From NCBI GenBank assembly GCA_951406725.2, contig OX597824.1, forward strand, positions 37,758,001 through 37,822,000: a DNA stretch of 64,000 nucleotides, given 5' to 3'. Under the pieces are notes generated by a model, which did not search any database, was not told where the DNA came from, and saw only the letters and a list, made by a program, of their open reading frames with translations. Shown in pieces: positions 41,379 to 64,000 of the stretch. The translations under genes were made by a program, and so were the position numbers. Within the stretch, counting starts at the first letter, position 1, and every line of letters begins with the position of its first letter. The stretch is from Octopus vulgaris. Its lineage: Eukaryota.

Positions 41379-41590
41379 ATATATAGCAATAAGAAAATGG
41401 AGGAGATCAATAGGTGGTTCATCAACTTTTAGACATTATATTATGTTAACTTATTTATTTATTTACTAAACTGATAATTATGTATAGAATTGTAATTATC
41501 AGTTTAGTAAATAAATAAATAAGTTAACATAATTTAATGTCTAAAAGTTGATGAACCACCTATTGATCTCCTCCATTTTCTTGCTATATA
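41379..41590. repeat. Near-perfect foldback (~100-bp arms, ~12-nt loop)
   Basis: aagaaaatggaggagatcaataggtggttcatc...ctgataatta / taattatcag...gatctcctccattttctt. Confidence 0.93.
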
Positions 41591-61311: not shown

Positions 61312-61510
61312 CGCCATGTTCGAACGCTGAACTCTACACTGATTTTTCCTTTTTCCGTTTTTTTTTTTTAATTCTCTCTCCATTTTTTTCCTCTTACACC
61401 TTTCTGACGAAGAAACGTAAAAGACTTTCCCATTTTTCCCGAGCATTAAACTAATACACCTGCTTTGTTTTTCCTACACCTGTCTTCCTCTTTTGTTTTT
61501 TCTACACTTG

Positions 61511-61515
<5 letters not shown>
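61312..61515 (+). mobile_element. PLE 3'-terminal (pLTR-like) fragment between (TA)n tracts, with a stem II-deleted HHR at 61400-61423
   Basis: CTTT-CTGACGA-A-GAAA-CG-TA-AAAG. Confidence 0.65.
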
Positions 61516-61584
<69 letters not shown>

Positions 61585-62499: not shown

Positions 62500-62678
<179 letters not shown>

Positions 62679-62812
62679 TTGATAGTTATCGCCAAGCTAA
62701 CATGGCAGTCCAGAAAAATAGGATGAATGCCAGCACGAGGCCAGCACGAACCTGTGTCCATTATAACCTTCGAACAGTGGAGGTCAGCCGCTTTCCCTTG
62801 CTGATCTGGTAT

Positions 62813-62853
62813 CTACAGACTAGTTTCAGGGTATTTGCCCCTTATCAATGTAG
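62813..62853 (-). ncRNA. Minimal type I hammerhead motif with U3-A8 compensatory core
   Basis: Minus strand CTACA-TTGATAA-GGGG-CAAATA-CCCT-GAAA-CTAG-TC-TGTAG. Confidence 0.82.
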
Positions 62854-62889
62854 AGTAGCCGAACCCAGCTGGCGTCGCTACTGACCGTC

Positions 62890-63775
62890 TGTTCTACATG
62901 GTAGAAGTGCATGTAAAGCAATCAGTGAAATAATAGGGACGATGATGGGTGCCTGTGAGGATGGTGGTGTTGGTGAGGTATGAGCAAGTGCGGCAACGTG
63001 GGTGAGAGCAAGGGAACGAGCCAGGTTGAGAGGTGGGGTTGGGGAAGAAACTGTGGACCAGGAGGACATGTAGGTCGTGGAATCGTTTGAAGGAAGGGTG
63101 GAGTAAGTTGGGGAAGATGTGCAAAGTGGAGGGGTCGGACTGGAGTCGCCAGAAAGCTCGGAAAATTGAGAGGCAGGGTGGAGGGGTGGTAGGTGAGGGG
63201 AACTGGATACGGTAACGGCGAGGCGGGTGCGGGAAGAGAGGGCAGATGCACGATCGACAGAACATGCTCTGGCTAGTGGGTATGGGTAGTAGTGAGGGGA
63301 TATCCACGAAGGATGAAGTGGCGAGCCATGAGTTGAGACTGAGTCTCAAAGTCATGATTGTCACTGCAGATCCTGTGCAGACGGAGGAACTGGGCGTAGG
63401 AGATAGAGAGCTAGGTGTGGGTAGGGTGGGAGGAGGAGAAGTTGAGGTATGAGTGTGAGTCGGTGTGTTTGTAGCAGAGGGGAGTGATGAGAGTGGAGTG
63501 GTGTATGTTGACCGAAATATCGAGAAAGGCGACGGAAGTGTTGGAAATGGTGCAGGCGAATTCGAGGGCAGGATGGAAGGATTGAGCAAAAGGGGAGAAG
63601 GAGTCTAGTTGTTCACGCACCGATACAGTCATCAATATAACGACCGTATAGTTCGGGAGTAGAACCAGTGAATCTTGAAAATATTTAGGCCTCAACGTAG
63701 CCAACAAACAGGTTTGCATAGTTGGGGCCCATTCTCGTTCCCATGGTCACTCCCCAGAGTTGTTGGTAAGACTCC

Positions 63776-63778
<3 letters not shown>
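62890..63778 (-). mobile_element. Penelope-like retroelement (Neptune-type) RT/thumb/Cys-linker relic, truncated at both ends
   Basis: YQQLWGVTMGTRMGPNYANLFVGYVE; FHPALEF...VAFLDI...YKHTDSHSYLNFSSSHP; GSFPCSHPRCRTC...FTCTS; abuts (TA)n. Confidence 0.9.
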
Positions 63779-63834
<56 letters not shown>

Positions 63835-63836
<2 letters not shown>

Positions 63837-64000
63837 TGCAGGCGTGACTGTTCGGTAAGATGCTTGCTTCTCAACCACGTGGTTCCGGATTCAATTCTGT
63901 TGTGTAGCACATTGCCCAAGCGTTTTCTACCACATCCTCGGGCCGATCAAAGCCTTGTGAATGGATTTGATAGGCGGAAACTGAAAGAAGCCCTTCGTAT
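63835..64000 (+). mobile_element. 5' part of SINE family A (runs off the window)
   Basis: Homology to the head of 33437-33868. Confidence 0.85.

What the first reader, a model, noticed from the sequence alone, without database searches (positions are those of the whole stretch)
62813..62853. U3-A8 compensatory core variant in an otherwise intact HHR next to a PLE RT relic
Core reads UUGAUAA instead of CUGAUGA. C3 and G8 form a Watson-Crick pair in the active fold (established), so the double change preserves pairing. Stems I-III and GUC are intact. It lies ~40 bp downstream of the Neptune-type ORF relic on the same strand, physically linking HHR and PLE, although it may come from a different PLE family.
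Basis: partly seen in the sequence, partly recalled or inferred. Interest (0 to 1): 0.7.

Follow-up and report, generated by a model that had tools for sequence, protein, structure and literature searches.

The report
Variant-hammerhead retrozyme fused to Penelope fragment
The odd U-A pair in this predicted self-cutting RNA is the normal, already-described sequence of a common non-coding jumping repeat, and this broken copy is joined directly to a piece of a Penelope retrotransposon, likely because that transposon's enzyme copied both RNAs in one insertion.

Summary
The hammerhead is real (minus strand, 62854-62812). U3-A8 is the family's inherited sequence: 207 of 220 copies read U-A and none C-G. 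The variant is in print (PMC3088659; PMC4209133, in Schistosoma Penelope-like elements, PLEs).

The ribozyme is not the PLE's own. It belongs to a ~361-nt non-coding, circularly permuted repeat, a non-LTR retrozyme (260 loci read). The PLE family has a different minimal hammerhead in its 3' end. The scan has reported U3-A8 retrozymes with PLE footprints before, in this genome and others.

What this locus adds is the junction. PLE ORF DNA meets the retrozyme's 5' end across 4 bases, with microsatellites only on the outer sides. Three of 132 other loci show the same kind of join; 400 kb of control DNA held no ORF piece of this family. A second sample gave 0 of 127, and the PLE halves look older.

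Best reading: PLE reverse transcriptase copies the retrozyme and sometimes switches to its own mRNA (about 0.55 for that step). Cleavage and circles are untested. New member of a known kind; modest interest.

The parts
62812..62854 (-). Type I hammerhead motif: 6-bp helix I, core UUGAUAA, 4-bp helix II (G.U closing pair, loop CAAAUA), GAAA, self-complementary ACUAGU helix III, predicted cleavage between 62818 and 62817
   Evidence: pair counts on 52 copies
62843..62848 (-). U3 (62848) and A8 (62843): the family's fixed core pair
   Evidence: 73 of 77 exact pattern matches U-A, 3 C-A, 1 U-G, 0 C-G (counted); 207 of 220 U-A
62675..62894 (-). Retrozyme fragment, 220 bp, about 0.6 of a ~361-nt monomer, with an internal deletion, ending at the family's 'short' 3' end
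62895..62898 (-). 4-base spacer at the PLE/retrozyme junction; no microsatellite between the two parts
62899..63777 (-). PLE ORF relic with stops and frameshifts: end of RT, thumb, CX4CxxC linker (about 63010-62984); stops just before the GIY-YIG domain
   Evidence: 72% identity over 82 aa to the 820-aa frame of copy L048, which scores RVT_1 and GIY-YIG below Pfam cut-offs
63778..63834 (.). (TA)n tract at the outer (5') side of the PLE piece
62500..62678 (.). (ATAG)n tract at the retrozyme's 3' end

Best explanation
The U3-A8 hammerhead is the inherited family sequence of a ~361-nt non-coding repeat (a retrozyme), and this broken copy was likely fused to the PLE fragment when a PLE reverse transcriptase switched from the retrozyme RNA to its own mRNA during one insertion. 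Shown: the family, its fixed U-A pair, its permuted and more-than-unit copies, its two fixed 3' ends, its back-to-back arms and four direct PLE-ORF junctions. Inferred: multimeric transcripts cut themselves as hammerhead dimers through the self-complementary helix III, give monomers or circles, and are copied by target-primed reverse transcription into TA-rich tracts. Here copying would have begun at the short end (62675), run 220 nt, jumped to PLE mRNA just upstream of GIY-YIG, and stopped after 879 nt. This copy is most likely dead: one ribozyme, less than a monomer. Odds by step: family-fixed U-A 0.98; retrozyme, not pLTR, 0.9; PLE-type mobilisation 0.8; this junction made by template switching 0.55.
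For: Core census 207 of 220 U-A, 0 C-G; 68 of 71 in the second sample, which was chosen mostly on non-ribozyme motifs. Structure is kept between subfamilies: helix I pair A-U 26 / G-C 21 of 52; pair 10.1-11.1 G-U 30, A-U 12, G-C 7; helix III hexamer ACUAGU 182, ACAUGU 8, ACGCGU 1 of 220, all self-complementary, with the ACAUGU form at about 46% of depth in runs X16 and X17. Monomer folds far better than shuffles (z -3.5 to -4.8, 4 copies). 27 of 91 single-arm copies exceed 370 bp; 42 of 133 loci are head-to-head, none tail-to-tail; 3' ends touch a microsatellite in 44 of 91 versus 11% of control points. Of 79 scorable head-to-head pairs (of 121), 71 join one short and one long end, like the PLE inverted copy and tail (PMC8557442, PMC11167929). 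PLE ORF DNA was found near 4 of 133 loci, always within 5 bp of the retrozyme 5' end, and in 0 of 400 kb control. L057 repeats the window's layout, (TA)n-PLE-retrozyme-(TA)n, with a 3-base overlap. In L128 the retrozyme arm has the long end and the PLE arm stops early, at a site shared with 2 other of 47 PLE ends (one case). Chance abutment expectation 0.009, P(>=3) 1e-7.
Against: The replication sample gave 0 ORF junctions in 127 loci; pooled rate 3 of 259 without the window (difference between samples p 0.25). The PLE half is more diverged than the retrozyme half in all four (8.0/4.3, 7.1/4.2, 7.4/5.9, 4.8/3.4% non-CpG; pooled p 0.0008), though the 30 PLE references mix subfamilies. If insertion into an old PLE piece with loss of one side is allowed, expectation rises to 0.35-1.1 (P 0.006-0.10). 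Both elements favour TA tracts and sit side by side across a microsatellite at L083, L251, L258, L260, and a second PLE family lies beside L128. Whether other retroelement families form such junctions could not be judged (one search missed the four positives). No cleavage or RNA-circle data; both strands fold about equally well.
Confidence: 0.6

Rival explanations
1. Same retrozyme family, but the junction is secondary: the retrozyme inserted into or beside an older PLE relic, and a target-site or later deletion removed the rest of the PLE.
For: PLE halves more diverged in 4 of 4; 0 of 127 in replication; shared liking for TA tracts; the window's exact junction is unique among 40 scored hits.
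Against: All four junctions are at the retrozyme 5' end, within 5 bp, with no microsatellite between and no continuation of the same PLE on the far side; ORF DNA of this family is rare (2 small non-junction pieces in 1.32 Mb).
Confidence: 0.3
2. The hammerhead is the pseudo-LTR ribozyme of an autonomous PLE family not yet found, and the 361-nt unit is only its detached end.
For: U3-A8 ribozymes occur in PLE pLTRs in Schistosoma (PMC4209133); Xenopus retrozymes are homologous to pLTRs (bioRxiv 2026.07.22.740005); copies carry PLE-type ends.
Against: tblastn with a PLE frame over 260 loci found no ORF running through a 3' UTR into the unit, though it detected a 29%-identical PLE in control DNA; upstream of the ribozyme the copies continue into the unit's own downstream half; the architecture is the canonical 6-bp/4-bp type, not the minimal PLE type. 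Flanks read were only 1.5-2 kb.
Confidence: 0.07
3. U3-A8 marks a decayed, non-functional ribozyme carried passively by a satellite-like repeat.
For: G10.1-C11.1 is mostly replaced by G-U or A-U; no Rfam hit; a PLE hammerhead was dispensable for insertion in vitro (PMC11167929).
Against: All other core positions are conserved; compensatory helix I change and palindrome-preserving helix III change between subfamilies; U3-A8 ribozymes are reported active in vitro (PMC3088659).
Confidence: 0.03

Closest known systems
Animal non-LTR retrozymes (Cervera and de la Pena 2020, PMC7229834, parts 2-3 of 6 and passages read; Li, Clavereau and Pollet, bioRxiv 10.64898/2026.07.22.740005, part 1 of 5 and passages read)
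   Same: Monomer of 361 nt (mussel 350-390), GC 46%, canonical type I hammerhead with weak helix III, self-paired fold, more-than-unit copies, co-existence with PLEs bearing minimal hammerheads; PLEs proposed as the carrier.
   Different: U3-A8 core; copies read here are short and dispersed (longest single arm 759 bp in the first sample), often head-to-head; direct fusions to PLE ORF DNA are not mentioned in the parts read; RNA circles not shown here.
U3-A8 hammerheads: natural variants (Perreault et al. 2011, PMC3088659, passages read) and Schistosoma mansoni Cercyon PLE minimal hammerheads (PMC4209133, parts 1-2 of 4 read)
   Same: The identical C3-G8 to U3-A8 exchange; about 1,300 hits in S. 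mansoni; reported active in vitro.
   Different: Here it sits in a canonical-type ribozyme of a non-coding repeat, without the extra base after A9 and the long helix II of the minimal type.
Neptune/Nematis-type EN+ Penelope-like elements (Craig et al. 2021, PMC8557442, passages read; Frangieh et al. 2024, PMC11167929, parts 1-2 of 4 read)
   Same: Relic family has RT, CX4CxxC linker, C-terminal GIY-YIG, 5' truncation, microsatellite ends and its own minimal hammerhead in the 3' end; inverted 5' copies and two end sites match the retrozyme's insertion pattern.
   Different: Clade not placed by a tree; the U3-A8 ribozyme is not this family's own.
U6-L1 and similar chimeric retrocopies made by template switching (recalled, no call)
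   Same: A small RNA and a retrotransposon mRNA joined in one insertion.
   Different: There the small RNA is the 5' part; here the retrotransposon piece is 5' and the non-autonomous RNA is 3', and two of four cases are head-to-head.

Membership tests
Type I hammerhead ribozyme | Three helices around the core boxes, helix I open, NUH cleavage triplet | tested here: met
   (93.7% of cells paired over 22 pairs in 52 copies)
Type I hammerhead ribozyme | Watson-Crick pair between positions 3 and 8 | tested here: met
   U-A in 207 of 220
Type I hammerhead ribozyme | Typical G10.1-C11.1 pair | tested here: not met
   G-U in this copy; G-U 30, A-U 12, G-C 7 of 52
Type I hammerhead ribozyme | Match to an Rfam hammerhead model | tested here: not met
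   no hammerhead family at E<=10 in 62680-63000
Type I hammerhead ribozyme | Self-cleavage | not testable with these tools
   only assembled contigs were available
Non-LTR retrozyme | 150-450 bp monomer, GC under 50%, one canonical type I hammerhead per unit | tested here: met
   361-nt period (joint 1763 to 1403 in 4 of 4 runs); GC 0.46
Non-LTR retrozyme | Non-coding | tested here: met
   only 56-71 aa frames overlap copy L058 (one copy examined)
Non-LTR retrozyme | Tandem or more-than-unit, permuted copies | tested here: met
   27 of 91 single arms over 370 bp; permuted starts; long arrays not seen among these loci
Non-LTR retrozyme | Highly self-paired monomer | tested here: met
   z -3.5 to -4.8 as circles, 4 copies; -3.6 linear
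Non-LTR retrozyme | Expressed as linear and circular monomer RNA | not testable with these tools
   no listed holder on record as RNA; contigs only
PLE pseudo-LTR hammerhead | Lies in the terminal repeat after the GIY-YIG ORF of its own family | tested here: not met
   19 other PLE copies mostly continue into GIY-YIG, none into this unit; 10 of 19 show a different minimal hammerhead downstream
Neptune-type PLE (relic) | RT, CX2-5CxxC linker, C-terminal GIY-YIG in one ORF | tested here: met
   copy L048, 820-aa frame: RVT_1 E 1.3e-6 and GIY-YIG E 0.012, both under Pfam cut-offs; linker seen
Neptune-type PLE (relic) | Placement in the Neptune rather than Nematis clade by RT tree | not tested

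The most novel reading that the evidence does not exclude
The retrozyme-PLE fusions are fossils of one PLE enzyme complex holding two different RNAs: it either switches from the retrozyme to its own mRNA (window, L057) or copies the retrozyme on one target end and PLE mRNA on the other (L080, L128). That would name the specific PLE family that moves this retrozyme, a partnership so far argued from co-occurrence and homology.
Probability: 0.5. Interest if true: 0.55.

Novelty: new member of a known kind. Interest (0 to 1): 0.33.

Why it matters
The base swap itself teaches little: it has been known in nature since 2011 and in PLEs since 2014. The junctions matter more. The papers read propose PLEs as the carriers of animal retrozymes from shared features, co-occurrence and pLTR homology. 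Direct fusions, if confirmed in a full census, would point to one named enzyme family with a near-open frame in the genome and make the partnership testable in the published PLE in vitro assay. The family also offers natural 10.1-11.1 and helix III variants on a U3-A8 background.

Tried and rejected
Rfam scans found no hammerhead; the window-wide hits are microsatellite artefacts. Folding the 41-mer alone is uninformative.

Decay from C3-G8: rejected, 0 of 220. The ribozyme as the relic's own pLTR: rejected. An amplified PLE-retrozyme hybrid family: no second copy of this junction among 40 scored of 1,101 candidates.

PLE 3' ends next to retrozymes (L083, L251, L258, L260) were not counted as fusions because a microsatellite lies between. 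General enrichment of repeats at retrozyme 5' ends: none, 34 of 91 versus 122 of 300 random points. Pfam scan of 148 flank frames for other retroelements missed the known positives, so it is inconclusive.

One search used a misregistered outer helix; one search is the corrected count. Three of 55 rows were left out of alignment A1 because their 5' part was not retrozyme sequence (L052, L063, L070). Seven and 13 duplicate loci were dropped before the counts.

Expression: no RNA holder listed; two runs guessed to be RNA hold contigs over the ribozyme, which shows nothing about transcription. The paper on exchanges of the 3-8 pair (Przybilski and Hammann 2007, recalled) is not held, so no rate for U3-A8 is cited.

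Searches for retrozyme-PLE chimeras in print (listings only, PMC11722881 not read) showed none. Supplements of PMC4209133, PMC7229834 and the bioRxiv preprint were not seen and may list this family.

Full report
Observation. The motif lies on the minus strand at 62854-62812: helix I UCUACA/UGUAGA, core UUGAUAA, helix II GGGG/CCCU with loop CAAAUA, GAAA, a two-pair helix III and GUC. It is the only hit of a relaxed scan of the window. Helix II closes with G-U. Helix III is the self-complementary hexamer ACUAGU with a 2-nt loop, the form that PMC4209133 describes as working in dimers. Rfam does not report it and the short sequence has no folding signal alone.

Is U3-A8 special to this copy? No. 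A genome search with positions 3 and 8 left free gave 77 matches: 73 U-A, 3 C-A, 1 U-G, 0 C-G, with 0 for the reversed control. Over all ribozyme arms read, 207 of 220 are U-A and none C-G; minor-letter rates at 3 and 8 (1-4%) equal those of neighbouring positions. So U-A is inherited from the masters and single changes are later drift. In contigs of four further organisms (codes C-F) no change at these two positions is among the 40 best-supported differences shown, with 57 not shown. The exchange is published: C3 and G8 'covary to U3 and A8 in several' natural ribozymes and such pairs are active in vitro (PMC3088659, passages); about 1,300 U3-A8 hits were found in Schistosoma mansoni from a PLE search (PMC4209133).

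What carries the ribozyme. Other copies continue upstream not into PLE DNA but into the unit's own downstream half. The unit has a 361-nt period, 46% GC, only short frames, and folds well as a circle on either strand. I read 260 distinct loci (133, 127); the first look listed 2,271 candidates, which is not a copy number. Subfamilies differ by a compensatory helix I pair (A-U 26, G-C 21 of 52), by G-U/A-U/G-C at 10.1-11.1, and by ACUAGU versus ACAUGU, both palindromes. These are a few inherited events, not many independent ones. By the criteria of PMC7229834 this is a non-LTR retrozyme; cleavage and circles are untested.

Insertion pattern. Of 133 loci 42 are head-to-head and none tail-to-tail; 3' ends meet microsatellites in 44 of 91 single arms against 11% of control points. 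Single arms end at two sites about 55 nt apart (77 short, 51 long, 11 other of 139), and 71 of 79 scorable head-to-head pairs join one of each; 42 more pairs had an unscorable arm. Inverted 5' copies, tails and microsatellite bias are PLE traits (PMC8557442), and two reverse-transcription start sites explain the tail (PMC11167929).

The relic. 62899-63777 is a broken piece of a multi-copy PLE (best relatives 79-84% identical, 3,597 candidates). Relatives run on into GIY-YIG; copy L048 keeps an 820-aa frame with RT and GIY-YIG matches under Pfam cut-offs and a CX4CxxC linker, which fits Neptune or Nematis. Ten of 19 copies show the family's own minimal hammerhead 0.6-1.2 kb further on, mostly with core CUGUUGA. 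The U3-A8 ribozyme is therefore not this PLE's.

The junction. PLE DNA stops at 62899 and retrozyme DNA starts at 62894; this exact join is unique among 40 scored hits. In the first sample PLE ORF DNA lay near only 4 of 133 loci (the window, L057, L080, L128), each within 5 bp of the retrozyme 5' end, two in the same direction and two head-to-head; 400 kb of control DNA had none. L057 has the window's layout between TA tracts, with a 3-base overlap. In L128 the retrozyme arm has the long end and the PLE arm ends early, as 3 of 47 PLE ends do. Chance abutment would give 0.009 such cases among 259 loci.

Against that reading. A second sample of 127 loci gave no ORF junction, only two small ORF pieces 205 and 853 bp away; 70 of these loci were retrozyme-retrozyme pairs, and the two samples do not differ significantly (p 0.25). 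PLE halves are more diverged than retrozyme halves in all four (pooled p 0.0008), although the references mix subfamilies. A null that allows insertion into an old PLE piece with loss of one side gives P 0.006-0.10. Specificity for this family over other retroelements is untested (one search was insensitive).

Mechanism. Most likely, retrozyme multimers cut themselves as ribozyme dimers, and a PLE RT-endonuclease copies the RNA into TA-rich DNA from two fixed starts. At this locus it would have copied 220 nt of retrozyme and then switched to PLE mRNA. The family and junction anatomy are shown; cleavage, circles, the carrier and the switch are inferred. This copy is probably inert.

Novelty. 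The variant and the element class are known, and the scan has noted U3-A8 retrozymes with PLE footprints in this genome and others. Fusions to PLE ORF DNA did not appear in paper listings or in the scan's notes. They are the one new lead, resting on three independent cases that did not recur in a second sample. Verdict: new member of a known kind, interest 0.33.

Noticed in passing
window 61361-61574 (+): A separate 3' end of the same PLE family, with a minimal hammerhead core CUGACGA whose helix II is deleted.
   Followed up: partly
PLE loci L034, L038, L041, L045, L046, L048, L258: The PLE family's own minimal hammerhead mostly reads CUGUUGA, with U in place of the conserved A6; not counted genome-wide.
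   Followed up: no
window 63835-64000: An abundant short repeat beside the TA tract; a matching repeat was found in 15 of 40 control loci.
   Followed up: no
window 41396-41577: Near-perfect AT-rich inverted repeat of about 180 bp (spurious MIR2646 match); possibly a miniature inverted-repeat element.
   Followed up: no
L128:2356-2617 (+); L176:5136-6328 (-): Other PLE families: a GIY-YIG piece about 49% identical just past the retrozyme in L128, and a 29-33% identical RT in control DNA.
   Followed up: no
L144 and L154; L060 and L145: Flanks near retrozyme copies are 97-99% identical between loci on different contigs, suggesting duplication or insertion into a young repeat.
   Followed up: no
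L103:2252-2449; L136:2173-2316: Retrozyme copies lie within 300 bp of frames matching dephospho-CoA kinase and CLPTM1, so they are probably intronic.
   Followed up: no
L278:2386-2542; L184:5830-5995: Older, more diverged relatives of the retrozyme (about 68% identity in L184); the L278 copy still reads UUGAUAA.
   Followed up: no
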